From positions 1 through 61,700 of the forward strand of contig JAIBJG010000013.1 in the NCBI GenBank assembly GCA_020029475.1: a DNA stretch of 61,700 nucleotides. Direction: 5' to 3'. Positions 38,491 through 52,409 of the stretch are shown here, piece by piece (the first letter of the stretch is position 1; every line of letters begins with the position of its first letter). The notes under the pieces were generated by a model, which saw only the letters and a list, made by a program, of their open reading frames with translations, did no database searches and was not told the DNA's origin. A program made the position numbers and the translations under genes. This stretch comes from Methanobacteriota archaeon. GTDB lineage: Archaea; Thermoplasmatota; Thermoplasmata; RBG-16-68-12.

Positions 38491-40914
38491 TCAGAAGAAG
38501 TCCTCCAGGGTGAGCTCTTTCTTCGTCTTCTGCACCTCCAGCTTCCGGGGCTTCTCCTCCTCGCCCTCGAACCCCGTGTGGAACAGGTCCGCCTGGACCG
38601 TGCCCATCAGGAGGGCCCGTTCGTCCCAGCCGTAGATCTCCGTGACGTACGACAGGGTCTGCGCGACCCGCCGGGCGTAGTACTCCCAGTCCGGCTTCGA
38701 CGTGAAGGGGCGGCCCGAGACCCATGGCTCCACGTGCATCGGGGCCTTCTTCGCGTCCACGACGACCCAGGAGACCTTCATCCCGGGGACGACCTCGTAC
38801 CCAAGTTCTTTCATCTTCCGGGCCGCGAGGACGTTCGACATCGAGTCCGGGTTCACGTACCGGCTGTCCTCCGCGACGGTGCGGGAGATCACGAGGGGCT
38901 CCAACGGGTCCCCGTCGTCGGGCAGCATGTCCTGCGGGATCCGGCCCGTCTTGATCTCCGCGACGAGCTCCTTCGCGAGCCGCACGGCCCCCTCGATGTC
39001 GTTCTCGAGGACCCGGTCGAACACCCGCTTCTGGGCCTCGCTCTGGAGGTCGAACGCGTCCGTCCTCCGGATCTCGTACCCCCGGACGATGAGTTCGTCC
39101 TCCACGGGCCATGCGGTCTTCGCGGCGTACCGCTTCTTCTTCCCGTGGCTGAAGAACGTGCGGAAGATCCGCTCGAGCTCCATGTTCACGTTCGCGGTGC
39201 TGAACCGCTCCGCCACCTTCCGTCCGAACTCGAGGGACTTCTCCTTGTCCTTGTGCGGGCTTTCCAGGAAGATGGAGTCCGTGTCGCTGTAGATTACCCG
39301 CACTCCGTCCGCCTCGAGCTGGCTGATCACGGACTTGATGTTCTCCCGTGCGAAGGCGGTGATGCTCGCCCCGATCTGGGGGTTCGTGAATCGGTAGAAC
39401 GAGGAGGCGAGGACGCCGTAGAAGGCGTTCATCAGGACCTTCACCGCGTCCTGGAGACGGCCATAATACTTCTTCCTCTCCGGGTCCGTCTCGGCTTTCA
39501 GTTTCGCCTTCACATCCCGTCGTTGCCGCATCAGGTCCCCGAGGATCGTGGGCAGGAGGCCGACCCGCTGCTGCGCGTTCAGGAAGCGCACGCCAATGGG
39601 GCTCTCGACGGTCCCCGCGTCGCTCAGGGTCGTGAAGCATATGTTCTTCTCGATAATAATCGACGGATACATCGAAGAGAAGTCGAGGGCGATCACCCAT
39701 TCGTAGAGCCCGGGCTCCAGGCTGTGGACGTACCCGCCCTCGATCGACTTCCCGCCGGAGCCCGAGCGGGTCATCGGGACCGCGACCCCCTGCCGGTCCG
39801 CGGCCCGGATCAGGATCGAGTCAATCATCGTGGACGTGCGGCTGTTGAACGTGTCGTCGACCGGGAGCTTCGAGACGACGCCGAGGTCCATCGCCTTGTC
39901 GAGGCGCGCGACCTTCTCGAGGACCCGGAGGGCGAGCTCCGCATCCTTTTTGCAGTACTCCAGGACCTTCTCCCGGTTCCGGGCCCACTCGTCCTCCATG
40001 TGGACCCGGTCCACGTCGTGCTTCCCCTCGCCGAGGAGCCACCGGGCGACCGCGTCCAGGGTCTCCTGCTTCGGGTGGAGCTCGAGTTTCACCGCCCACC
40101 ACGCGTCCGCGATGATCCGCCCGTGGGCCCGCCAGAACCGTTCGCTGATGTTGCTGATCCCCTGCCCGTCCCGGGAGAGCGGCAGGTTCATGATCCCGTG
40201 GACACGCGCCCGCTGCTCGAGGATCGGGAGGTCGTACCCGTCGATGTTGTACCCCGTGATCACGTCCGGGTCCATCTTCGTGATGAAATCGATGAACCGA
40301 CGGATGATCTCCTTCTCGTCTCCCGTGAGGATGTCCGTCTTCAGGGCGCCGTCCTCCCGCCACGCGAGGCCGAGGCACAGGACCGTCGGGTCCGTGATCG
40401 TGTTCTCGATGTCGAAGGAGACGACCTTCAGGGCGGGGTTGAACACCTCGCAGGGCTCGAACCGCTCCGCCCGGACGACGAGGTCCGTCGTGTACCGGCC
40501 CTTCGCGAGCGCGCCATGGATCCGGACGCACGCGGCGATGTCCATGTCGTAGATGAAGCGATGCGCGAACGGGATGTCCGCCGCCATCACCTCGGACCCG
40601 TGCTTGCGGGCCCGCTCCCGGTATTCGGGGGTCTTCCACGGGTGCTGGAGGGTGACCTTCGCGCACGGCGCCTTGCGGCCCTGGACCTCGAGCTCGACGG
40701 TCTCCACTTTCAGGACCTCGGAGTCCCGCTGGAGGTAGTTGAGGAGGACCTGCGAGGGCCTCACCGCGTAGAAATACGGCTTGAAGCCCCAGTACTCCGC
40801 CGCGATCGACCGGCCCTCCCGGGTCCGCCCGAAGAGCTCGATCACGGGCTCCTCCTGCGGCCCGTCCCGGCGGTACGACGCCGTCAGTATCCGAACGTCC
40901 CAGGACTCCGTCAT
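38491..40914 (-). CDS. polB: Family B DNA polymerase
   Basis: Exo I FDIEN, Exo II YNIDGYDLPIL, Pol A DFSSMYPSII, Pol B KVLMNAFYGV, Pol C YSDTDS. 807 aa with no intein-sized insertion. The ATG at 40914 overlaps the upstream GTPase stop (ATGA). Confidence 0.95.
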   Translation of the reverse strand: MTESWDVRILTASYRRDGPQEEPVIELFGRTREGRSIAAEYWGFKPYFYAVRPSQVLLNYLQRDSEVLKVETVELEVQGRKAPCAKVTLQHPWKTPEYRERARKHGSEVMAADIPFAHRFIYDMDIAACVRIHGALAKGRYTTDLVVRAERFEPCEVFNPALKVVSFDIENTITDPTVLCLGLAWREDGALKTDILTGDEKEIIRRFIDFITKMDPDVITGYNIDGYDLPILEQRARVHGIMNLPLSRDGQGISNISERFWRAHGRIIADAWWAVKLELHPKQETLDAVARWLLGEGKHDVDRVHMEDEWARNREKVLEYCKKDAELALRVLEKVARLDKAMDLGVVSKLPVDDTFNSRTSTMIDSILIRAADRQGVAVPMTRSGSGGKSIEGGYVHSLEPGLYEWVIALDFSSMYPSIIIEKNICFTTLSDAGTVESPIGVRFLNAQQRVGLLPTILGDLMRQRRDVKAKLKAETDPERKKYYGRLQDAVKVLMNAFYGVLASSFYRFTNPQIGASITAFARENIKSVISQLEADGVRVIYSDTDSIFLESPHKDKEKSLEFGRKVAERFSTANVNMELERIFRTFFSHGKKKRYAAKTAWPVEDELIVRGYEIRRTDAFDLQSEAQKRVFDRVLENDIEGAVRLAKELVAEIKTGRIPQDMLPDDGDPLEPLVISRTVAEDSRYVNPDSMSNVLAARKMKELGYEVVPGMKVSWVVVDAKKAPMHVEPWVSGRPFTSKPDWEYYARRVAQTLSYVTEIYGWDERALLMGTVQADLFHTGFEGEEEKPRKLEVQKTKKELTLEDFF

Positions 40915-42101
40915 GCCTTCGCCACGATCTTGATCACGTCGCCATCCTGGACCGCATAGTCGTGCCCGACGACCATCCTGGTGCGGGCGTTGATGGCGCG
41001 GATGAACCCTCTTCCGAGGTCCGTATGCACGCGAAACGCTAAATCCTTCGCAGTCACACTGCGCGGGACGAGGAACGCGTCGGGCAGGACGTTCCCCTTC
41101 TTGTCCGTCCAGTGCGTCTCGTCCTCCACAGGGAACACGACGATCAGGTTCAGGAGGTCCCGCCCCGCGCGCTCGATGCACGGCTGCACCCCCGTGGACC
41201 CGTGGGTCCCGAGGAACGCCTCGATCTTCTTCAGGCCCGCGAGCTGCTCCGCGGAGAGTTTCCCGGGGTCCAGGATCCGGAACGACGGCGCCCCGGGCTC
41301 GTACGCGATGAGCCCCGCCTTCGCGGCGCGCCGGAGCGCGAGCTCGTACGCGGCGGCCGTCGGGACGACGATCGTCCCCGCCTCCTTCGTCAGCCGCTCG
41401 ATCGCCTCGGCGGGAGCAATGTCCGCCTTGTTCGCGGCGACCATCATCGGCTTCCCCCGCTGGAGGATCCGCTTCGAGAGCCGGAGGGCGTCCTCCGCGG
41501 TCCACTTCGAGGGGCGCGGGTCCATCCCCGCCTCCAGGAGGGCGGTGTGGATCTGGTTCTCCGTCACGCCGAGCCCCGCGAGCCGATCGTGGAGGACGCG
41601 TTCGATCGGGGTCTCCTCGAGCTCCGCGCGCCGGGCGACCTTCTCCAGGTCCCGCGAAAGGATCCCCCGGACCCAGTGCGCGAGCTCATCCTCCAAGAAC
41701 CGCACGTCTTCGAGGGGGTCGTGGGTCCCGGGTTTCACGGGGTTCCCCTCGAAGTCCGTGGACCCGCTCGCGTCCACGACGTGGATGAACGCGGCGGCCT
41801 GGCGGAGATCGTCGAGGAACTTGTTCCCGAGGCCCCGCCCTTCGTGGGCCATGGGGACCAGGCCCGCGACGTCGAGGACGTCCACGGGGACGAACCGCTT
41901 CCCGTCCTGGCAGCCGCCGTGGATCGGCGCGCACGGCTTCCCGAGTTCCACGTGCGGGCACGGGACGCGGATGAACGCGACCCCGCGGTTCGGTTCGATC
42001 GTCGTGAACGGGTAGTTCGCGATCTGCGCAGGGGCCAGCGTCGCGGCGGAGAAGAACGTCGACTTCCCCACGTTCGGCTTCCCGACGATCCCGAGTTCCA
42101 C
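40911..42101 (-). CDS. Obg-like GTPase/ATPase with C-terminal TGS domain (YchF/OLA1/Drg-like)
   Basis: G1 GKPNVGKST, YPFTTIEPN, DVAGLV, NKAD, and a TGS-like VQDGDVIKIV end. The start was moved to the GTG at 42101, about 29 nt downstream of TTTATTTG. The TTG at 42128 lies inside the TATA box. Confidence 0.88.
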   Translation of the reverse strand: MELGIVGKPNVGKSTFFSAATLAPAQIANYPFTTIEPNRGVAFIRVPCPHVELGKPCAPIHGGCQDGKRFVPVDVLDVAGLVPMAHEGRGLGNKFLDDLRQAAAFIHVVDASGSTDFEGNPVKPGTHDPLEDVRFLEDELAHWVRGILSRDLEKVARRAELEETPIERVLHDRLAGLGVTENQIHTALLEAGMDPRPSKWTAEDALRLSKRILQRGKPMMVAANKADIAPAEAIERLTKEAGTIVVPTAAAYELALRRAAKAGLIAYEPGAPSFRILDPGKLSAEQLAGLKKIEAFLGTHGSTGVQPCIERAGRDLLNLIVVFPVEDETHWTDKKGNVLPDAFLVPRSVTAKDLAFRVHTDLGRGFIRAINARTRMVVGHDYAVQDGDVIKIVAKA

Positions 42102-42143
42102 GGCCCGCCGAACACGGCCGTGACACAAATAAACTTAGGCGGG

Positions 42144-45100
42144 TCAGGGGGACCCGCGATCGCGTCTCCGGCCCCTCCGGAGGGCCAGCACGACGACCAG
42201 GACAAGCGCCGCGGGAACCGCGACCTCGTGGAACTCCGGGAGCGGGACCGGGCCGCCGTCGGTCCGGGTCGACGGGGGATCCGCGGAACGTGTGACGATC
42301 ACGTCTGTGACGTCTCCGTTCCCGGACCAGTCGCTCGTCTGGAACGCCATCCGCGTGCCGTTCAGCTGGGACGGGTTCAGTCCGATGGAACCCTCCATCG
42401 CGGTCGTGTTCTTCGCGACCTGCAGCGAGAGGAGGGCGGGCACCCAGCCCGATTGCCATCGGAACAAGTCCTGGCGGGTCATCCTGCCATTCGACCCGCG
42501 GACTTCCACCATGTAATCGGCGAGCATGCCGGCGAACGGGAGCCCCGCGGTATCCGTCGCGTTCGAATCGATGTACACCCGCGCGATGTCCTCGCCCGTG
42601 ATCCTCGGAGGGGGAGAGCCGGATCCCCCGCCACCGCCGCCCCCGCCCTGGACCGCGCGAGGGACCTTCTGCGGGACGGGGACGCCCTCGACGAGCGCGC
42701 CCGCGACCTGGAGCATGAAGAACGTGCCGGACGCGTTCGCGGCTCCTCCGTGGGACCGGATGTCCAGCCCCGCCCGGGGGATCGCGACGGAATCGGAATC
42801 GAGGACCGTGAGGCCGGCCCAGTCCGCGAACAGCCCGTCGATCCGGATCCCCGCCGGCGGGGCGAGGAAGTACGCGTCGAGCCCGGGACCGGTCACGGTG
42901 ACGGGGCGCGGGGCGGGCGCGGACCGGAGGGCGACGGAGACGGGGGAGCCGGAGGGGAATCCCGTCACGGTGACGGAGACCGTCACGGACGCCGTCGGGG
43001 TGGCCCGCATGAGGGGGACCGTCGAGAGGGATGGACTCACCGTGACCCCGGTCGTCGCGGTGAACCCGAAGGGACCCACGACCCACGTGCTCCCCTCTGG
43101 GATCTGTCCCAGGGCGACGACGTCGAGCCGGAGGGCCTGGGTCGTCCCGGACGGGAGGACGGTGGCGAGGGGGGTCTGCCGGATCCGGATCGCTCCGAAC
43201 GTCGCGGAGAGGGCGACGCTCGCGCGGGACACGGACCCCTCGAAGTCGTCCGCGACGATGAGGATCGTCGAGACGCTCGTGGAGAACGCGGCGAAGTCGT
43301 CCGTGGAGACCCGGAACTCGAGGGTCGGCCCGGAGGCCGCGGCGGGGAGCCCCGCGACCGCGGCCCGGCGGCTCCAGTTCAGCTCCGCGTTCGCCGGGAA
43401 CTCAAAGAGGCGGGCGGACTCCACGCGGCCCGAGCCGCCGAGGACCTCCGCGACGTACTCCGCCCCGAGGGCCTGCACCTGGTACCCCGTCACGGCGGAC
43501 CCGTCCGCGTCGAAGAACGCGTAGAACGCGTCGTTCCCCACGGAGTCCCCGAGGGCCGTGCCGGAGACCTGGACGAGGAACGAGAGGAGATTCCCCTCCG
43601 GGTAGACGCCGTACGACTGGATTGTGACGTTGGGGTTCGAGGCTGCCGCCGGATCCGAGTACCTGGGGAGGGCGGACCAGTCCGTCGGGTTCCCGTCGAT
43701 CGCGACCGCGGTCGCGGGGCCCGTCGGGGGCGGGAGGAGGGCGGCGACGATCGCGAACACGAGCAGAAGGGAGCCCGCGATCACGCCGTACCGGAACAGG
43801 AGGGACCGCGGCGGGAGACCGAAGTCCGTGATCGCGCTCGTGTCCATGAACCCGAAGCCGTTCACGAGGCCGTTCACCCGGCCGCTCCCGTTGATCAGGC
43901 CGTGACCGTTGATGAGACCGCGGCGGAGGCGGGTCTGCGGGGCGGGGAGGACGCGGGCGCGGGGCGCCGGCGCCTCCATCGGGCGGCGGGGCGGGGGCTC
44001 CGGGACGACTTCCGGCTCGGCCTCCGGCGTCTCCTCGTCGAGCTCCTCCACGTCGACCTCCTCCCCGGGCACCGGGATGGGTTCTGGAGCGCGCTTCGGT
44101 GTGAATTTCGGGATGAGCTCCGGAGAGGGCTCCGGCTCCTTCGCCGGCGCCGGGGCGAGATCGCGGTCGGCGGGCGCCTGCTGGAAGATCCTCTCCAGTT
44201 CCTTGATTGCGACGAGCTCCGGCGTGAGGGGCTCGTCCGGCTCTGCCGGCTCCGCCGCCGGCGCGGGCGGCGCCTCGACGTCGAGCTCCTCCGCGGGCAC
44301 GCGGGGGGCGGCCTCGGGCTCGACCTTGTGGCCGCACGCCGGGCACACCTGCGCATCCGGAAGGACGCCCTCCCCGCAGATCGGGCACTCCCGTTCCGCG
44401 AGGGAGGACAGGGCCGCAAGGGCGTCCGTGGCGGCCTCGACCTCCTCCTCTGGGGGCCTCTCTTGCTCCGGCGGAGCGGCCGCCAGGGCCTCCCCCGCCA
44501 CAGGGATCGTCCTTAGGGTCCCGCGGAGGACCTGGGACGCCTGTTTAATCTCCCGCATCGCTGCGAGGACCCGGGAGCGGACCGTCATCACCCGCCGGGA
44601 CTCGGGGTCGAGGCGGGCCGCCATGTCGATGGAGCGCATCGCCTCCTGGAGCTCCTGGATGTCGAGCAGGACGAGGGCCCGGGCGTACCACAGGTCCCCG
44701 TCCTTCGGGGTCTCCTCGAGGTGGACGTCGTAGAACGCGAGGAGTCCCTTCTCGAGCTCCTTCGTGACCTCCCGCCGGAGCTCGTCGTCAATCTCCTCCT
44801 CGTCGAACACCGCCCCGCAGTCCGAGCAGCCCTTCGCGAACAGGGACGTGACGCACTCGCACAGGGGGCACGCGTACTCCTCGGAGAGGACCTCCTCCTT
44901 CGACTTCCGTCGCGGGAGGAGGAGGATGAACCGGAGGGAGTCCTTCACCATCTTCGCGCCGCGGGGTCCGATCAGCCGGACCCGTCCGAGCTCCTCGTCG
45001 GACGCCCGCTTGATCCGCCATATCGCGTTGTACCCCGCGCGGCACAGGGCCTCCGCCTTCGCGCGCCCCACGCCGGGGATCCGGGCGATCTCGTCCACGT

Positions 45101-45479
45101 CCGCGTCCGTGTACTCGCCCCGGATCTTCCGCTTCGGACGCACCTTCTTCGCGGCCGGCGCGCCTGCCGCCTCCTCCTCGAAGACGGCGCCGCAGGCGGG
45201 ACAGGACTTCGCGTCCGCGTCGACGAACGTGCCGCACAGGAGGCACGCGAACTGCTCCTTGTGGGGGCCCGCGACCTCCTCGAACAGGAACCGGTTGTCG
45301 CACTTCTCGCACACGAAGAGGGTGGGGTTCTCCGTCTTGCACTCCGTGCACACGATCCGGCGGTCCACCTCCGTCGAGTCCGCGCGGACCGCGACGCTCC
45401 CGCACGTGTTGCAGATGGAGACGGGGACGACCTTTGAGGCGCAGTTCGGACAGGGGCGCACGTCCGCGGTGCGGACCAT
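42144..45479 (-). CDS. 1111-aa multi-zinc-ribbon / HhH / TPR-like / TM protein with a large extracytoplasmic domain and a PEF-CTERM-like tail
   Basis: The real start is the ATG at 45479 (MVRTADVRPCPNC...). The upstream part of the 1296-aa ORF is antisense-frame overlap with the TPR gene. It has ten CxxC pairs, HhH-like IARIPGVGRAKAEAL, a Pro/Glu linker, GLING-type mini-repeats, the TM helix LLFRYGVIAGSLLLVFAIVAALL, two IDGxxxDW-containing regions, and a C-terminal PEF+TM+RRGRRR. Confidence 0.8.
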   Translation of the reverse strand: MVRTADVRPCPNCASKVVPVSICNTCGSVAVRADSTEVDRRIVCTECKTENPTLFVCEKCDNRFLFEEVAGPHKEQFACLLCGTFVDADAKSCPACGAVFEEEAAGAPAAKKVRPKRKIRGEYTDADVDEIARIPGVGRAKAEALCRAGYNAIWRIKRASDEELGRVRLIGPRGAKMVKDSLRFILLLPRRKSKEEVLSEEYACPLCECVTSLFAKGCSDCGAVFDEEEIDDELRREVTKELEKGLLAFYDVHLEETPKDGDLWYARALVLLDIQELQEAMRSIDMAARLDPESRRVMTVRSRVLAAMREIKQASQVLRGTLRTIPVAGEALAAAPPEQERPPEEEVEAATDALAALSSLAERECPICGEGVLPDAQVCPACGHKVEPEAAPRVPAEELDVEAPPAPAAEPAEPDEPLTPELVAIKELERIFQQAPADRDLAPAPAKEPEPSPELIPKFTPKRAPEPIPVPGEEVDVEELDEETPEAEPEVVPEPPPRRPMEAPAPRARVLPAPQTRLRRGLINGHGLINGSGRVNGLVNGFGFMDTSAITDFGLPPRSLLFRYGVIAGSLLLVFAIVAALLPPPTGPATAVAIDGNPTDWSALPRYSDPAAASNPNVTIQSYGVYPEGNLLSFLVQVSGTALGDSVGNDAFYAFFDADGSAVTGYQVQALGAEYVAEVLGGSGRVESARLFEFPANAELNWSRRAAVAGLPAAASGPTLEFRVSTDDFAAFSTSVSTILIVADDFEGSVSRASVALSATFGAIRIRQTPLATVLPSGTTQALRLDVVALGQIPEGSTWVVGPFGFTATTGVTVSPSLSTVPLMRATPTASVTVSVTVTGFPSGSPVSVALRSAPAPRPVTVTGPGLDAYFLAPPAGIRIDGLFADWAGLTVLDSDSVAIPRAGLDIRSHGGAANASGTFFMLQVAGALVEGVPVPQKVPRAVQGGGGGGGGSGSPPPRITGEDIARVYIDSNATDTAGLPFAGMLADYMVEVRGSNGRMTRQDLFRWQSGWVPALLSLQVAKNTTAMEGSIGLNPSQLNGTRMAFQTSDWSGNGDVTDVIVTRSADPPSTRTDGGPVPLPEFHEVAVPAALVLVVVLALRRGRRRDRGSP

Positions 45480-46204
45480 CAGCCCTCCCCTCCCTCCGCG
45501 CGGGCCCGCTCGAGGGCCTCGACAGCCTCCGCGAAGTCGGGCCGCAGGTCGATCGCCTTCTCCAGGCAGATCACCGCCGGGTCCGGCTGTCCGGATTCCA
45601 GGAGCGCACGTCCCTTGAAGTACCAGGCGTCCGGGAGGTCCGGCCGTCGCCGGAGGGCGACGTTGTACACGTCGATCGACTCCTCGTATCGGCCGAGGGC
45701 GAAGAGAGAGGACGCCCGGTTGAACGCGGCGAGCGCGAACGCGGGGTCCGCCTCGAGGGCCTTGTTGTAGAGCTCCAGGGCCTCCTCGTGCTCCCCCTGG
45801 CGGGAGCGGAGGACCCCCTTGTCCATCAGCGCGACGGGGTGGCGGGGGTTCACCTTGAGGACTGTGTCGAAGCACTCGAGGGCCCGGTCCAGCCGGGCCA
45901 TGTGCATCAGCGCGATCCCCTTGTTGCACCACGCCTCGAGGTACGCGGGGCGGAGGCGGATCGCGCGGTTGTGGCACTTCAGGGCCTCCTCCGGCTTCCC
46001 GAGGGTCTCGAGGATGATCCCGCGGTTGTTCCACGCGGCCTCGTTGTCCGGGTCGATGTCGAGCGCCTTGTTGAACGCCTTCATCGCGGCCGCGAGCTCG
46101 CCGCGGCGGAGGAGGTGGTTCCCGCGGGCGACCTCCCTCCGGGCCCGCTGCGCCTTCGTGAGGCCAAAGGGTGCCCTAGCCAATCGCACGATTCGACCGA
46201 GCAT
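45479..46204 (-). CDS. TPR-repeat protein
   Basis: Six or seven 34-aa TPR units (AAAMKAFNKALDIDPDNEAAWNNRGIILETLGKPEEALKCHNRAIRLRP...). The stop overlaps the start of the 1111-aa gene (TGATG). The exact start is uncertain because the TATA-like box is only about 14 nt from the ATG. Confidence 0.85.
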   Translation of the reverse strand: MLGRIVRLARAPFGLTKAQRARREVARGNHLLRRGELAAAMKAFNKALDIDPDNEAAWNNRGIILETLGKPEEALKCHNRAIRLRPAYLEAWCNKGIALMHMARLDRALECFDTVLKVNPRHPVALMDKGVLRSRQGEHEEALELYNKALEADPAFALAAFNRASSLFALGRYEESIDVYNVALRRRPDLPDAWYFKGRALLESGQPDPAVICLEKAIDLRPDFAEAVEALERARAEGGEG

Positions 46205-46274
46205 TCGCGCTGACCAGCTTTATTAGGGCTTAAGCAAGTTCTCCCGCGATTATCGGGTCTGAAAGTGAAAACGT

Positions 46275-47333
46275 ATGGAGAGCGCACTCGTTCTTTGCGA
46301 AGGGGCCTTCGGTCGCACGCTGGGGAAGACCGCGAACGGGCTCGTCCGGTATTCGAAGCGGTACCGGATCCTCGGCGTCCTCGACAGCACGACGGCGGGC
46401 CGGGACGCGGGGGAGGTCCTGGACGGACGTCGGAACGGGATCCCGATCTTCGCGGGCCTGCGCGAGGCGCTCTCGCAGCTCCCCGAGAAGCCCGCCACGT
46501 TAATCGTCGGGGTCGCGACGTTCGGCGGGTACATCCCGAAGGAGTTCCGTCCCGTGATCCGCGAGGCGATCGAGGCGGGGCTGAACGTGGCGGCGGGGCT
46601 CCATGAATACCTCTCCGACGACGCCGAGTTCTCGGCCCTCGCCGCCCGCCACGGGGTCGCGCTGATCGACGTGCGGAAGCCGAGGCCCCTCCGGGAGCTC
46701 GCGCAGTTCAGCGACCTCTCCCGCCACCTCCCCTGCCTCCGCATCCCCGTCCTCGGCACGGACGGGGCGATCGGGAAGCGGACGACCGCGATCCTGCTGA
46801 CGGAAGCGCTCCGCGGGGCGGGGATTCCCGCCGAGTTCGTGGCGACGGGGCAGACGGGCCTCCTGCAGGGCGCCCGCTACGGCGTGCCGCTGGACTCGAT
46901 CAAGGGGGACTTCATGGTCGGGGAGCTCGAGCGGGAGGTCGTGCGGGCGTTCGAGGAGAACCGGCCCCGCGTCGTCGTGGTTGAGGGACAGGGTAGCATC
47001 TCCCACCCCGCGTACGTGGCGGGGACGCGGGCGATCATCATGGCGTCGATGCCGAGCGGGATCGTCCTGCAGCACGCGCCCGGCCGGAAGACGCGGAACT
47101 TCCGGAGGGACGTCGTGGCGTGGCCGATGCCCACGGTCGAAAAGGAGATTGCGATGCTCGAGATGTTCTCCGAATCGAAGGTGATCGCCCTCGCGTTGAA
47201 CCACGAGAACCTCACGCCGGAGGAGGTGCGGCGCACCGAGCAAGAGTATGAGGCCCGCTACGGGCTGCCGACGACGGACCCGCTCCTCGACGGGTGCGAG
47301 AAGCTCGTGATTAAAATTCGGTCGATGTTATGA
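46275..47333 (+). CDS. DUF1611-family P-loop protein (COG3367-like)
   Basis: GTDGAIGKRTT Walker-A-like loop, with overall length and pattern as I recall for DUF1611. The stop overlaps the next gene's start (ATGA). Confidence 0.7.
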   Translation: MESALVLCEGAFGRTLGKTANGLVRYSKRYRILGVLDSTTAGRDAGEVLDGRRNGIPIFAGLREALSQLPEKPATLIVGVATFGGYIPKEFRPVIREAIEAGLNVAAGLHEYLSDDAEFSALAARHGVALIDVRKPRPLRELAQFSDLSRHLPCLRIPVLGTDGAIGKRTTAILLTEALRGAGIPAEFVATGQTGLLQGARYGVPLDSIKGDFMVGELEREVVRAFEENRPRVVVVEGQGSISHPAYVAGTRAIIMASMPSGIVLQHAPGRKTRNFRRDVVAWPMPTVEKEIAMLEMFSESKVIALALNHENLTPEEVRRTEQEYEARYGLPTTDPLLDGCEKLVIKIRSML

Positions 47334-48097
47334 AAATACCCTCCTCCCATCCCAGGTACCGGTCCCTCGTGACCCGCGAGAGGCTCGTCCAGGCGTGGAA
47401 GGCCGGGATCGTCGTGCCGGAGGGGCTGATCGCCCACGGCCGGGGGGAGGCGTTCGACTATCTCCTCGGGGAGGAGACGAGCGCGCCCGCCCTCGTCGCG
47501 GAGAAGGCCGCGGCCGCGTTCCTCGTGCGCGCGGCGTCCCCCGTGATCTCCGTGAACGGGAACGTCGCCGCGCTGGCCGCGAAGGAGGTCGTGCGCCTCG
47601 CGGCGGCAATCCCCGCCAAGATCGAGGTGAACCTGTTCCACCGGACGCAGCCCCGCGTGCGCCGGATCGCACAGGTGCTCCGGAAGGCGGGAGCGAATAG
47701 GGTGCTCGGGCTCCGCCCGGACGCCCGGATCCCGGGCCTCGACTCGAAGCGGGCGCTCGCCCAGCGGGCCGGAATCTACGGCGCGGACGTAGTCCTCGTG
47801 CCCCTCGAGGACGGGGACCGCACGGAGGCCCTCGTCCGGATGGGGAAGGTCGTCATCGGCGTGGACCTGAACCCGCTCTCCCGGACTTCCCGCCACGCCA
47901 CGGTCCCGATCGTGGACGAGCTCACCCGCGCGATCCCGAACGTCGGGAAGTTCGTGCGGGAACTCCACAGAAACCCGAAGGAGGGCGCGCGGATCGTACG
48001 GACATGGAACAAGTCGGGGAACCTGCGCGCGTCGTACTCGTTCTTGAACTGGCGGCTCCGGACCCTCGCCCGGGGACCGCGGAAGCGCAGCCGGTGA
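47330..48097 (+). CDS. Archaeal phosphopantothenate synthetase (4-phosphopantoate--beta-alanine ligase, COG1701)
   Basis: HPRYRSL..., GLIAHGRGEAFDYLLGE, VISVNGNVAAL, VPLEDGDRTEALVRMGK and DLNPLSR blocks match the TK1686-type enzyme as I recall it. Confidence 0.85.
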   Translation: MKIPSSHPRYRSLVTRERLVQAWKAGIVVPEGLIAHGRGEAFDYLLGEETSAPALVAEKAAAAFLVRAASPVISVNGNVAALAAKEVVRLAAAIPAKIEVNLFHRTQPRVRRIAQVLRKAGANRVLGLRPDARIPGLDSKRALAQRAGIYGADVVLVPLEDGDRTEALVRMGKVVIGVDLNPLSRTSRHATVPIVDELTRAIPNVGKFVRELHRNPKEGARIVRTWNKSGNLRASYSFLNWRLRTLARGPRKRSR

Positions 48098-51446: not shown

Positions 51447-52409
51447 ATGCGGAGGGACCTCGCCTCGATCGCGGCGATGGCGGGGATGCTCGTCGTCTCC
51501 CAGCTGATCGCGCTCCTCCTCGCGCCGATCTTCCTGGACCTGAACTTCCAGGCGTTCCCGGACGCGAGCAACCCCGTGAATCCCCTCCTGTACATCCTCC
51601 TGATCCTCGCGTTCACCGGGGTGATCCTCCTCCTCGTTCGGTACCGAAAGAGGAACCTCACGAAGTACGTGATCCTCGGGTCGATCTTCTTCACGATCGC
51701 GTTCGTGTTCGTCGTCCCTCTGTACCTCGCGACGTACTGGTGGATGGACCTCGAGCTCGCGGGGAACGTCTCGACGATAGGGGCATTCCTCCTTGCGATC
51801 CTGATCGTGTACGCACTGTACAAGTACCCGGAATGGTACCTCGTGGACACCGTCGGGATCGCAATCGCGGCGGGCGTCACCGCCGTCCTCGGGATCTCGT
51901 TCGCGATCCTCCCCGCGTTCCTCCTCCTCATCGGGCTCGCACTGTACGACGCGTGGGCCGTATACCGATCGAAGCACATGGTCACCCTCGCCGACGAGAT
52001 GACGAGCCAGAGGCTGCCGATCCTTCTCGTCGTCCCGAAGAAGGCGTCGTACTCGTACCTCGAGCAGAAGAGCCTCAAAGAGCAGATCGCGAAGGGGGAG
52101 GAACGGGAGGCGATGTTCATGGGGCTCGGGGACATCATCATCCCCGGCGTCCTCGTCGTCGCCGCGTCGATCTTCCTCCGGCCCCAGTTCGGGTACCCGG
52201 ACGTCACGGTGCTCGGGCTCCCGGGATATCTGTTCGTCGCGTTGATGACGATGGTCGGGACCCTAGTCGGGTTCTCGATCCTGATGCGGTTCGTGATGAA
52301 GGGGAACCCGCAAGCGGGCCTCCCGCTCCTGAACGGCGGCGCGATCGCGGGATACCTTGTGTCCTTCGCGATCGTGTTCGGCACCATGAAGGCGTTCGGG
52401 CTCGCCTGA
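51447..52409 (+). CDS. Presenilin/signal-peptide-peptidase-like intramembrane aspartyl protease (A22 family)
   Basis: Polytopic, with YD (LALYDAWAVY) and GxGD (FMGLGDIIIPG) catalytic motifs and a PAL-like GLPLL near the C-terminus. Confidence 0.8.
   Translation: MRRDLASIAAMAGMLVVSQLIALLLAPIFLDLNFQAFPDASNPVNPLLYILLILAFTGVILLLVRYRKRNLTKYVILGSIFFTIAFVFVVPLYLATYWWMDLELAGNVSTIGAFLLAILIVYALYKYPEWYLVDTVGIAIAAGVTAVLGISFAILPAFLLLIGLALYDAWAVYRSKHMVTLADEMTSQRLPILLVVPKKASYSYLEQKSLKEQIAKGEEREAMFMGLGDIIIPGVLVVAASIFLRPQFGYPDVTVLGLPGYLFVALMTMVGTLVGFSILMRFVMKGNPQAGLPLLNGGAIAGYLVSFAIVFGTMKAFGLA

What the first reader, a model, noticed from the sequence alone, without database searches (positions are those of the whole stretch)
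42144..45479. Giant bitopic protein: cytoplasmic array of five zinc ribbons plus HhH motifs, and a large extracytoplasmic domain
Residues 1-100 carry six CxxC pairs (three ribbons), followed by two HhH-like DNA-binding motifs (IARIPGVGRAKAEALCRAGY..., LIGPRGAKMV). Then come a fourth ribbon, a TPR-like segment, a fifth ribbon, a Pro/Glu-rich linker, GLING/RVNG/LVNG mini-repeats and a TM helix. After that lies about 530 aa outside the membrane, with two IDGxxxDW-type regions and a G8 tract. Nucleic-acid-binding modules on the inside and a large sensor- or adhesin-like domain on the outside suggest a membrane-tethered signalling or DNA-handling protein. I do not recognise this type.
Basis: partly seen in the sequence, partly recalled or inferred. 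Interest (0 to 1): 0.65.

Follow-up and report, generated by a model that had tools for sequence, protein, structure and literature searches.

The report
Double-anchored archaeal surface protein, cytoplasmic head
This is a real 1111-residue membrane protein of an uncultured Thermoplasmata archaeon, with zinc-ribbon, DNA-binding-type and TPR modules inside the cell and a sugar-coated three-domain region outside; it belongs to an undescribed protein family that probably links the cell surface to intracellular regulation.

Summary
The ORF (42144-45479, minus strand, 1111 aa) is real.

One correction: the protein is not bitopic. It ends in an invariant PEF motif, a second TM helix and an Arg cluster. 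This resembles a PEF-CTERM sorting signal but scores below that model's cut-off.

The positive-inside rule, Cys distribution and N-glycosylation sequon bias all place the ribbons, HhH and TPR in the cytoplasm and about 500 aa outside. The outside part is predicted as three beta-sandwich domains. The first and third are homologous to each other and have no Pfam or PDB sequence relative.

The family is unnamed and was found only in uncultured Thermoplasmata-type MAGs, with several paralogues per genome. The conserved core runs from the NG repeats to the C-terminal PEF signal; both the cytoplasmic head and the outer modules vary.

A TPR gene overlaps the start codon here. In paralogues, a KaiC-like ATPase is either fused to the protein or encoded upstream together with a wHTH regulator.

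Best reading: a transmembrane coupling or signalling receptor-adhesin. The function is inferred, not shown.

The parts
45479..46204 (-). Upstream partner gene: soluble 241-aa protein with six TPRs. Its stop overlaps the big gene's ATG (ATGA).
   Evidence: Pfam TPR_1 E = 1.6e-49. The overlap is seen. It is conserved directly upstream in the closer orthologue loci, and is 50% identical in L073, where the big protein is only 39% identical.
42144..45479 (-). CDS of the 1111-aa two-TM surface protein (stop included).
   Evidence: GC3 0.93. Full-length homologues.
45186..45458 (-). Residues 8-98: three tandem zinc ribbons (CxxC pairs 10/23, 44/57, 79/93).
   Evidence: AF2 predicts beta-hairpins with pLDDT of about 71-81.
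44925..45152 (-). Residues 110-185: basic stretch KKVRPKRKIRGEY followed by an (HhH)2 domain (IARIPGVGRAKAEAL; RLIGPRGAKMV).
   Evidence: HHH_5 scores 25.5 bits against a cut-off of 27. The family profile hits the haloarchaeal eL32 N-terminal domain at E = 4.7e-6, plus RadA, Hel308 and Pol X HhH domains. Five helices are predicted at pLDDT 88-91. Residues 101-200 have a net charge of +8.
44811..44876 (-). Residues 202-223: fourth zinc ribbon.
   Evidence: Invariant C204, C207, C218 and C221.
44511..44786 (-). Residues 232-323: three TPR repeats.
   Evidence: Family profile against PDB E = 7e-15. Foldseek probability 1.00, TMt 0.7-0.78. Helices.
44328..44393 (-). Residues 363-384: fifth zinc ribbon.
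   Evidence: Pfam Zn_ribbon_3 at 30.5 bits and DZR at 30.0 bits, both above cut-off. The Cys residues are invariant.
43929..44327 (-). Residues 385-517: acidic, Pro-rich, poorly conserved linker.
   Evidence: 30 Pro and 28 Asp/Glu in residues 400-520. Length varies among homologues. Its first 26 residues, the only part inside the cytoplasmic AF2 model, have pLDDT below 50.
43848..43919 (-). Residues 521-544: juxtamembrane GxxNG repeats (GLING HGLING SGRVNG LVNG FGF).
   Evidence: Nearly invariant in orthologues. Expanded to more than ten copies in many paralogues, and present in all family members with a complete N-terminus.
43734..43802 (-). Residues 560-582: TM1, a signal-anchor with the N-terminus inside.
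   Evidence: Kyte-Doolittle hydropathy (19-residue window) 2.5. Positive-inside statistics.
43203..43715 (-). Residues 589-759: ecto domain D1, an 'IDGxFxDW' beta-sandwich.
   Evidence: AF2 pLDDT mostly 80-95. Homologous to D3: hhalign probability 99.9%, E = 6.5e-35.
42867..43193 (-). Residues 763-871: ecto domain D2, an Ig-like beta-sandwich.
   Evidence: AF2 model. Only generic Ig/adhesin fold matches.
42291..42860 (-). Residues 874-1063: ecto domain D3, the second 'IDGxFxDW' beta-sandwich. It carries a disordered Gly/Pro loop (G8 tract at 42606-42647).
42147..42239 (-). Residues 1081-1111: PEF motif, TM2 (1086-1100) and the RRGRRRDR tail. This is a PEF-CTERM-like tripartite end.
   Evidence: PEF is invariant in orthologues, and a PEF (or PEM) + TM + basic end is kept in distant paralogues. 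AF2 predicts a helix here. TIGR03024 scores are below cut-off.

Best explanation
**Shown by the analyses here**
- This is a glycoprotein-type surface protein of an uncultured Thermoplasmata archaeon. It crosses the membrane twice, with both ends inside the cell.
- About 560 N-terminal residues are cytoplasmic. In order they are: three zinc ribbons, a basic stretch plus an (HhH)2 domain, a fourth ribbon, three TPRs, a fifth ribbon, a roughly 130-residue flexible acidic/Pro-rich tether, and GxxNG repeats next to the membrane.
- About 500 residues are outside. They form a lectin/jelly-roll-like beta-sandwich (D1), an Ig-like domain (D2) and a duplicate of D1 (D3).
- The C-terminus is held by PEF + TM + Arg cluster.

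**Inferred mechanism**
- The ectodomain binds an external ligand or surface, probably a glycan or a neighbouring envelope component.
- The conserved core (NG repeats, TM1, D1-D2-D3, PEF end) passes this state, or simply tethers it, to the cytoplasmic head.
- The head acts as an adaptor platform. Its TPRs and ribbons recruit the co-encoded TPR protein and other partners. Its basic (HhH)2 module contacts nucleic acid or a partner protein.
- In paralogues, the same core is wired to a KaiC-like ATPase (fused, or in an operon) and a double-wHTH regulator. This is why I read the whole family as surface-to-cytoplasm coupling (signalling) receptors rather than passive coat proteins.

**Confidence**
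- Architecture and topology: about 0.9.
- The signalling/coupling function of this particular orthologue: about 0.45.
For: **Architecture**
-.

**Topology**
- Positive-inside rule, Cys partition and a roughly 5-fold sequon enrichment outside, across 55 members.

**Family and core**
- 72 loci, all from Thermoplasmata-type MAGs, with 3-4 paralogues per MAG.
- The core is conserved at 22-30% identity, while the cytoplasmic head ranges from about 100 to 1350 aa.
- Outer modules in paralogues are adhesin-type: DUF11, LTD, FG-GAP, BNR, CBM9.
- Relatives from a library with no taxonomy (P0077, P0096) keep the same order: HhH2, ribbons, TPR, NG repeats, TM, two IDG domains, then PEM + TM.

**TPR link, seen in three forms**
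- internal TPR in this protein
- an overlapping 241-aa TPR gene here, 50% identical in L073
- a 727-aa TPR gene upstream of short-headed paralogues

**KaiC link**
- Fused in P0019 (named 'RAD55 family ATPase') and in about 10 loci.
- In about 13 other loci the operon order is KaiC-like ATPase, then double wHTH, then the family gene.
- KaiC-like ATPases have been proposed as archaeal signal-transduction hubs (Makarova et al. 2017, seen only as a citation in PMC6393860; the rest is my own knowledge).
Against: - No KaiC-like ATPase or wHTH gene lies near this orthologue, or anywhere in the 61.7-kb window.
- Its neighbourhood is housekeeping: CoA and CTP synthesis, a YchF-like GTPase and PolB. That synteny may only reflect relatedness.
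- The HhH score of this protein itself is just below Pfam's cut-off, and HhH domains can also mediate protein contacts.
- There are no expression, localisation or binding data; no RNA runs were found.
- Fold searches of the ectodomain gave only generic beta-sandwich matches with low TM-scores, so no ligand can be named.
- Many surface proteins exist in multiple paralogues without signalling.
Confidence: 0.45

Rival explanations
1. Structural envelope protein or adhesin only. It is part of the glycoprotein coat of a wall-less or S-layer-poor Thermoplasmata cell, pinned at both ends. The cytoplasmic head merely anchors the coat to internal structures (nucleoid or scaffold) and transmits no signal.
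For: - The ectodomain is beta-sandwich/Ig-like and sequon-rich.
- Paralogues carry adhesin-type modules.
- The C-terminal sorting-signal-like end is typical of archaeal surface proteins.
- The gene context is housekeeping.
Against: - The large, strongly conserved cytoplasmic head (invariant Cys quartets, HhH) and the repeated fusion or operon link to KaiC-like ATPase and wHTH in paralogues are not expected for a passive coat protein.
- There is no match to known S-layer families.
Confidence: 0.3
2. DNA-handling protein. The basic (HhH)2 module and ribbons tether chromosomal or incoming DNA to the membrane, for nucleoid anchoring, segregation or DNA transfer. The ectodomain would mediate cell-cell or cell-surface contact.
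For: - The HhH profile matches RadA, Hel308, Hef and Pol X DNA-binding modules.
- Residues 101-200 carry a net charge of +8.
- The gene sits next to PolB in more than 20 of the related loci.
Against: - HhH is present only in some subfamilies; the family core lacks it.
- No nuclease, translocase or pilus genes are adjacent here.
- The adjacency to PolB is shared with a whole block of housekeeping genes.
- The YchF-like GTPase gene that lies between this gene and PolB appears to have its own TATA-like element.
Confidence: 0.1
3. A membrane-tethered regulator released by proteolysis. Cleavage at or near TM1, or at the PEF end, frees the head or the ectodomain. Candidate proteases are the A24 peptidase seen next to paralogues, the presenilin homologue in the window, or an archaeosortase.
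For: - An A24 (FlaK-like) peptidase gene lies convergent, about 300 nt downstream of the family gene, in 8 or more paralogue loci.
- The presenilin homologue PSH is at window 51447-52409.
- The PEF-CTERM-like end is of a type cleaved by archaeosortases.
Against: - There is no conserved class-III-like cleavage motif before TM1.
- PSH is about 6 kb away and syntenic with the whole block.
- No archaeosortase was found in the window or in about 1 Mb of related flanking DNA.
- The PEF-CTERM model scores below its cut-off.
Confidence: 0.1
4. Artefact: a chimeric or mis-called ORF created by assembly, or by a long open frame in GC-rich DNA.
For: GC-rich DNA produces many long spurious ORFs; the antisense 1134-aa ORF at 41112-44516 is one example.
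Against: - GC3 is 0.93 in this frame against 0.72 for the antisense ORF.
- Full-length collinear homologues occur in more than 30 independent MAGs from soil and sediment.
- Four sediment metagenome runs hold the sequence.
Confidence: 0.01

Closest known systems
PEF-CTERM proteins (TIGR03024), the putative substrates of archaeosortase C
   Same: C-terminal tripartite end: PEF signature, a hydrophobic helix containing a Pro, and a terminal Arg/Lys cluster. It sits on an extracellular, glycoprotein-type beta-sandwich protein.
   Different: - It scores below the model's cut-off.
- It has an internal signal-anchor after a 560-aa cytoplasmic head, not an N-terminal signal peptide.
- No archaeosortase was found in the DNA available.
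- In about 1 Mb of related DNA the motif is almost confined to this one family.
Membrane-tethered regulators with a cytoplasmic DNA-binding or Zn-binding N-domain and an external sensor (ToxR/CadC-type regulators; zinc-binding anti-sigma factors)
   Same: General layout: a nucleic-acid- or partner-binding head inside, a signal-anchor TM, and a sensor domain outside.
   Different: - The head is ribbons + (HhH)2 + TPR, not an OmpR-type wHTH or an HxxxCxxC anti-sigma domain.
- The organism is archaeal, so there are no sigma factors.
- There is a second TM at the C-terminus.
- This is a resemblance of layout only.
KaiC-like ATPase signalling modules of archaea (proposal of Makarova, Galperin and Koonin 2017)
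   Same: Paralogues of this protein are fused to a KaiC-like ('RAD55 family') ATPase, or sit downstream of one together with a wHTH regulator.
   Different: The window's orthologue has no KaiC-like gene nearby. To my knowledge, from the searches, the link between these ATPases and this surface-protein family has not been described.
(HhH)2 domains of RadA N-domain, Hel308 domain 5, Hef/XPF C-terminus and the haloarchaeal eL32 N-extension
   Same: Sequence-profile similarity over residues 125-185.
   Different: Here the domain is embedded in a membrane protein between zinc ribbons. No catalytic or recombinase domain is attached.
Modular archaeal and bacterial adhesin-like surface proteins (DUF11, FG-GAP, LTD, Ig-like arrays)
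   Same: Beta-sandwich arrays outside the cell, variable outer modules in paralogues, and sequon richness.
   Different: - The D1/D3 'IDGxFxDW' domain is a sequence family with no Pfam or PDB relative.
- Such adhesins normally lack a large cytoplasmic domain.

Membership tests
PEF-CTERM sorting domain (TIGR03024) / archaeosortase C substrate | Tripartite C-terminus: PEF signature, TM helix, basic cluster at the extreme end | tested here: met
   PEFHEVAVPAALVLVVVLALRRGRRRDRGSP. PEF is invariant in 14 orthologues, and PEF + TM + R/K is kept in about 47 ORFs of the loci. Hydropathy; predicted helix.
PEF-CTERM sorting domain (TIGR03024) / archaeosortase C substrate | HMM score at or above the curated cut-off (23 bits) | tested here: not met
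   The window's tail gave no TIGR03024 hit at E <= 10. Tails of relatives scored 20.5, 17.5, 14.5, 12.7 and 9.2 bits.
PEF-CTERM sorting domain (TIGR03024) / archaeosortase C substrate | A cognate archaeosortase encoded in the same genome | tested here: inconclusive
   None among the multi-TM ORFs of the window. None among all 6-9-TM ORFs of 230-380 aa in the 72 related loci, about 1 Mb. Whole genomes were not available.
PEF-CTERM sorting domain (TIGR03024) / archaeosortase C substrate | N-terminal signal peptide, and the signal shared by several unrelated proteins of the genome | tested here: not met
   The export signal is an internal signal-anchor at residues 560-582. In window plus loci the motif occurs almost only in this family. 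Flanking DNA is a biased sample.
(HhH)2 domain (Pfam HHH_5, PF14520) | Profile score above the gathering cut-off; two helix-hairpin-helix motifs | tested here: inconclusive
   - Window protein: 25.5 bits against a cut-off of 27.
- Relatives pass: PF14520 is precomputed for most homologues; L012 scores 50.5 bits; L047 scores 46.8 bits.
- Family profile against PDB eL32 HhH: E = 4.7e-6.
- The first hairpin, PGVG, is canonical; the second, IGPRG, is degenerate.
- DNA binding itself cannot be tested here.
Zinc ribbon (Pfam Zn_ribbon_3 / DZR) | Two CxxC knuckles 9-15 residues apart; profile score above cut-off | tested here: met
   The fifth ribbon scores 30.5 and 30.0 bits, above cut-offs of 27 and 27.3. 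The other four are recognised by invariant Cys quartets with the same spacing. Metal binding was not tested.
TPR repeats | Tandem 34-residue helix-turn-helix repeats recognised by profile and fold | tested here: met
   Single-sequence Pfam is below cut-off. The family profile against PDB consensus TPR gives E = 7e-15. The AF2 model against TPR structures gives probability 1.00 and TMt up to 0.78.
KaiC-like-ATPase-linked signalling module | KaiC-like ATPase fused to, or encoded next to, the protein | tested here: not met
   There is no KaiC-like hit in the window (tblastn, E < 1e-5). The feature is met only for paralogue groups.
ToxR/CadC-type bitopic regulators | Cytoplasmic OmpR-type winged-helix domain, a single TM, a periplasmic sensor | tested here: not met
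   No wHTH was detected, and there are two TM segments. Only the layout is similar.
Known S-layer or surface-protein domain families | Match to a described S-layer or adhesin domain model | tested here: not met
   No Pfam hit for residues 583-1111 of the window protein. No PDB sequence hit. Only generic beta-sandwich fold matches.

The most novel reading that the evidence does not exclude
The family is a previously undescribed class of archaeal transmembrane signalling receptors specific to Thermoplasmata-type archaea. A conserved double-anchored ecto core (NG repeats, TM, duplicated IDGxFxDW lectin-like domains, PEF end) carries interchangeable outer binding modules. Inside, it carries interchangeable output heads: a KaiC-like ATPase with a wHTH regulator in some paralogues, and in this orthologue a direct nucleic-acid-binding Zn-ribbon/(HhH)2 head working with a dedicated TPR partner.
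Probability: 0.35. Interest if true: 0.75.

Novelty: new variant of a known kind. Interest (0 to 1): 0.55.

Why it matters
- Signal transduction across the membrane in archaea is poorly understood outside two-component and chemotaxis systems. The roles of the many KaiC-like ATPases are largely conjecture.
- This family physically joins a glycosylated surface receptor to Zn-ribbon/HhH/TPR heads and, in paralogues, to KaiC-like ATPases and wHTH regulators. That gives a concrete, testable entry point into the problem.
- It also defines a new extracellular domain (IDGxFxDW beta-sandwich).
- It shows an unusual use of a PEF-CTERM-like end on a protein that already has an N-terminal membrane anchor. 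This bears on how archaeosortase-type signals work.
- The organisms are abundant but uncultured soil and sediment Thermoplasmata whose envelopes are essentially unknown.

Tried and rejected
- **Word-indexed homologue searches.** They returned little beyond close orthologues. The candidate lists were probably saturated by low-complexity words.
- **Fold searches of the ectodomain.** Foldseek against PDB and BFVD gave only generic Ig, CBM, lectin, adhesin and tail-protein matches at low TM-scores. No specific fold family is claimed.
- **Sequence profile of the ectodomain against PDB.** Nothing found.
- **Pfam across 25 ectodomains.** Only accessory modules of paralogues matched. The two CBM9_1 hits probably fall in the extra C-terminal domain that the window protein lacks; their positions were not checked.
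- **PADLOC.** No defence-system match for the big protein.
- **Archaeosortase hunt.** Nothing in the window or the loci.
- **Class-III signal-peptide-like motif before TM1.** None conserved.
- **Expression.** No RNA runs; only four sediment and one soil DNA metagenome runs.
- **Literature.** Nothing on this family. The Haft 2012 and Makarova 2017 papers are not held in the library.
- **Functional link to the YchF-like GTPase and PolB.** Considered and set aside. The whole block is syntenic, and the GTPase seems to have its own TATA-like element.

Full report
**The observation**

The minus-strand ORF 42144-45479 encodes 1111 aa. Its ATG overlaps the TGA of an upstream 241-aa TPR gene (45479-46204) as ATGA.

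Codon-position GC (0.70/0.52/0.93) matches the neighbouring genes. The in-frame extension upstream has a GC3 of only 0.44, so the start codon is right. The long antisense ORF is spurious.

The following features are confirmed:
- There are ten CxxC pairs, forming five zinc ribbons. All 22 Cys lie in the first 382 residues. The ribbon Cys are invariant or nearly so in 14 homologues of 39-83% identity.
- The fifth ribbon passes Pfam's cut-off. HHH_5 (residues 130-183) scores 25.5 bits against 27, and the TPR hits are weak for the single sequence.
- The family profile hits consensus TPR at E = 7e-15. It also hits the HhH domains of haloarchaeal eL32, RadA, Hel308 and Pol X.
- Relatives pass HHH_5 clearly.
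- The AF2 model of residues 1-410 (pLDDT 72.9) shows hairpins, a five-helix (HhH)2 domain and three TPRs. Foldseek confirms the TPR fold.
- The linker, NG repeats, TM1, both IDGxxxDW motifs and the G8 tract are present.

**A correction to the observation**

The protein is not bitopic. It ends in PEF (1081-1083), a second hydrophobic helix (1086-1100) and RRGRRRDR.

PEF is invariant in the orthologues. A PEF (or PEM) + TM + basic end is kept even in paralogues of 22-30% identity and in more distant relatives.

This has the form of the PEF-CTERM sorting signal ascribed to archaeosortase C (PMC5244752, PMC6098224). However:
- TIGR03024 scores are below its 23-bit cut-off. The best relative scores 20.5 bits, and the window's own tail is not reported at all.
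- No archaeosortase was found in the window, nor among all suitable multi-TM ORFs in about 1 Mb of related loci.

**Topology**

Statistics were taken over 55 family members:

| Measure | Value |
|---|---|
| K/R in the 15 residues before TM1 | 2-9 |
| K/R in the 15 residues after TM1 | 0-3 |
| K/R in the 15 residues before TM2 | 0-3 |
| K/R in the 15 residues after TM2 | 4-8 |
| N-x-S/T sequons per 100 aa, between the TMs | 1.46 |
| N-x-S/T sequons per 100 aa, N-terminal part | 0.30 |
| Share of Asn lying in sequons, between the TMs | 33% |
| Share of Asn lying in sequons, N-terminal part | 9.5% |

Together with the Cys-rich ribbons, this places the head inside and residues about 583-1080 outside. 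The outside part is likely N-glycosylated.

**The ectodomain**

AF2 (pLDDT 80.8, pTM 0.75) gives three beta-sandwich domains followed by the C-terminal helix.

D1 (589-759) and D3 (874-1063) are homologous to each other, with hhalign probability 99.9% and E = 6.5e-35. D3 carries the disordered Gly/Pro loop. D2 is Ig-like.

Neither Pfam nor PDB sequences recognise D1 or D3. Foldseek gives only generic lectin, Ig and adhesin-like matches.

**The family**

All 72 related loci come from uncultured Thermoplasmata or Methanomassiliicoccales-labelled MAGs, with several paralogues per MAG. The window's sequence occurs in freshwater-sediment metagenomes.

No homologue with this protein's ribbon-HhH head carries a name.

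The conserved core runs from the NG repeats through TM1 and D1-D2-D3 to the PEF end. Everything else varies:
- The cytoplasmic head ranges from about 100 to 1350 aa, with 0-20 CxxC pairs.
- The outer end carries DUF11, LTD, FG-GAP, BNR or CBM9 modules in paralogues.
- The window protein and its closest relatives lack an extra domain of about 170 aa that most orthologues have before the PEF.

An exhaustive phmmer search with the head found 32 representatives below 1e-30. It also found giant relatives with the same domain order.

**Genomic context**

Orthologues sit in a conserved housekeeping block. The gene order is:
1. CTP synthase
2. a thioredoxin-like gene
3. phosphopantothenate synthetase
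4. a DUF1611 gene
5. the TPR gene (present in the closer clade only)
6. this gene
7. a YchF-like GTPase
8. PolB
9. a sugar kinase

The TPR partner overlaps or abuts the big gene's start in the closer clade. It is better conserved (50% identity) than the big protein (39%) in L073. Short-headed paralogues have a 727-aa TPR gene upstream. TPR is therefore linked to the core in three ways: fused, as a small neighbour and as a large neighbour.

AT-rich TATA-like elements lie before the TPR gene and just after the big gene's stop. This suggests a two-gene operon and a separate promoter for the GTPase. This point is an inference.

**The most informative context is in the paralogues**
- In about 13 loci, a KaiC-like ATPase gene and a double-wHTH gene immediately precede a family gene. 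That gene has the architecture HhH, DZR, TPR, NG repeats, TM, ectodomain, LTD, DUF11 and PEF. An A24 peptidase gene often lies convergent downstream.
- In about 10 other loci, and in P0019 (named 'RAD55 family ATPase', HLE54520.1), the KaiC-like domain is fused to the N-terminus.
- One MAG (bin_16) has the orthologue, a short-headed paralogue and a KaiC-operon paralogue together.

**Interpretation**

Shown: the architecture, the topology, the internal duplication, the family distribution and the gene-neighbourhood links.

Inferred: the family couples an extracellular binding surface to cytoplasmic adaptor or regulatory modules. This orthologue uses a Zn-ribbon/(HhH)2/TPR head together with a TPR partner, possibly contacting nucleic acid.

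Rival readings:
- A passive coat protein or adhesin cannot be excluded.
- A DNA-tethering role cannot be excluded.
- Proteolytic release of the head or the ectodomain cannot be excluded.
- An assembly or ORF-calling artefact is excluded by the conservation data.

**Comparison with known families**

The protein resembles PEF-CTERM surface proteins at its C-terminus, and membrane-tethered regulators in its layout. It fails defining tests of both, as set out in the membership table. I found no description of this family.

I rate it a new variant of known kinds, built from known module types plus one new ecto domain. There is a realistic chance (about 0.35) that it represents a new class of archaeal transmembrane signalling receptor.

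Noticed in passing
window 51447-52409 (+): Archaeal presenilin homologue PSH, an intramembrane aspartyl protease (NF041679, 288.7 bits). It lies about 6 kb from the big gene and is syntenic in 11 or more related loci. This is probably just conserved gene order, but it is a candidate protease for single-pass anchors.
   Followed up: partly
window 42124-42137 and 46218-46226: AT-rich TATA-like elements in a 68% GC genome. TAAGTTTATTTGTG lies right after the big gene's stop and about 25 nt before a GTG (42101) where the YchF-like GTPase homology begins. ctaataaag lies about 15-20 nt upstream of the TPR gene's ATG. Together they suggest a TPR + big-gene operon and a separate, near-leaderless GTPase transcript.
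   Followed up: partly
L047 14918-16021 (-); also L042, L049, L052, L054, L056, L059, L066: An A24 FlaK/PibD-like prepilin-type peptidase (Arc_PepC_II) is encoded convergent, about 300 nt downstream of one paralogue subfamily. No pilin-like cleavage motif was seen before TM1 of the family proteins.
   Followed up: partly
L047 8298-9881 (+) and about 12 other loci; L039 4418-8884: A conserved operon of a KaiC-like ATPase and a double-wHTH (TrmB/MarR/HVO_0163-like) regulator lies directly upstream of paralogues. L039 has four tandem KaiC-like genes.
   Followed up: yes
window 38491-41505 (-) / 40911-42128 (-): The longest PolB ORF overlaps the YchF-like GTPase gene in another frame. The real PolB start is probably near 40900. 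The TTG start listed for the GTPase (42128) is probably too far upstream; the homology starts at residue 10.
   Followed up: no
L073 14977-17037 (-) and 19644-21033 (-): Other large surface-type proteins (faint Big_7/Big_13 matches; PKD + VWA) are encoded a few kb from the orthologue in a related 49.6-kb contig.
   Followed up: no
alignment A1, columns about 1270-1480 (homologues P0005-P0017): Most orthologues carry one of two alternative extra domains of about 170 aa between D3 and the PEF. One is CBM9-like with four Cys; the other is a different beta-rich domain. The window protein and its three closest relatives lack it.
   Followed up: partly
window 46275-48097 (+): A DUF1611/DgcN-like gene and a phosphopantothenate synthetase gene (archaeal CoA pathway) lie divergent from the TPR gene. 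They are syntenic in nearly all orthologue loci.
   Followed up: no
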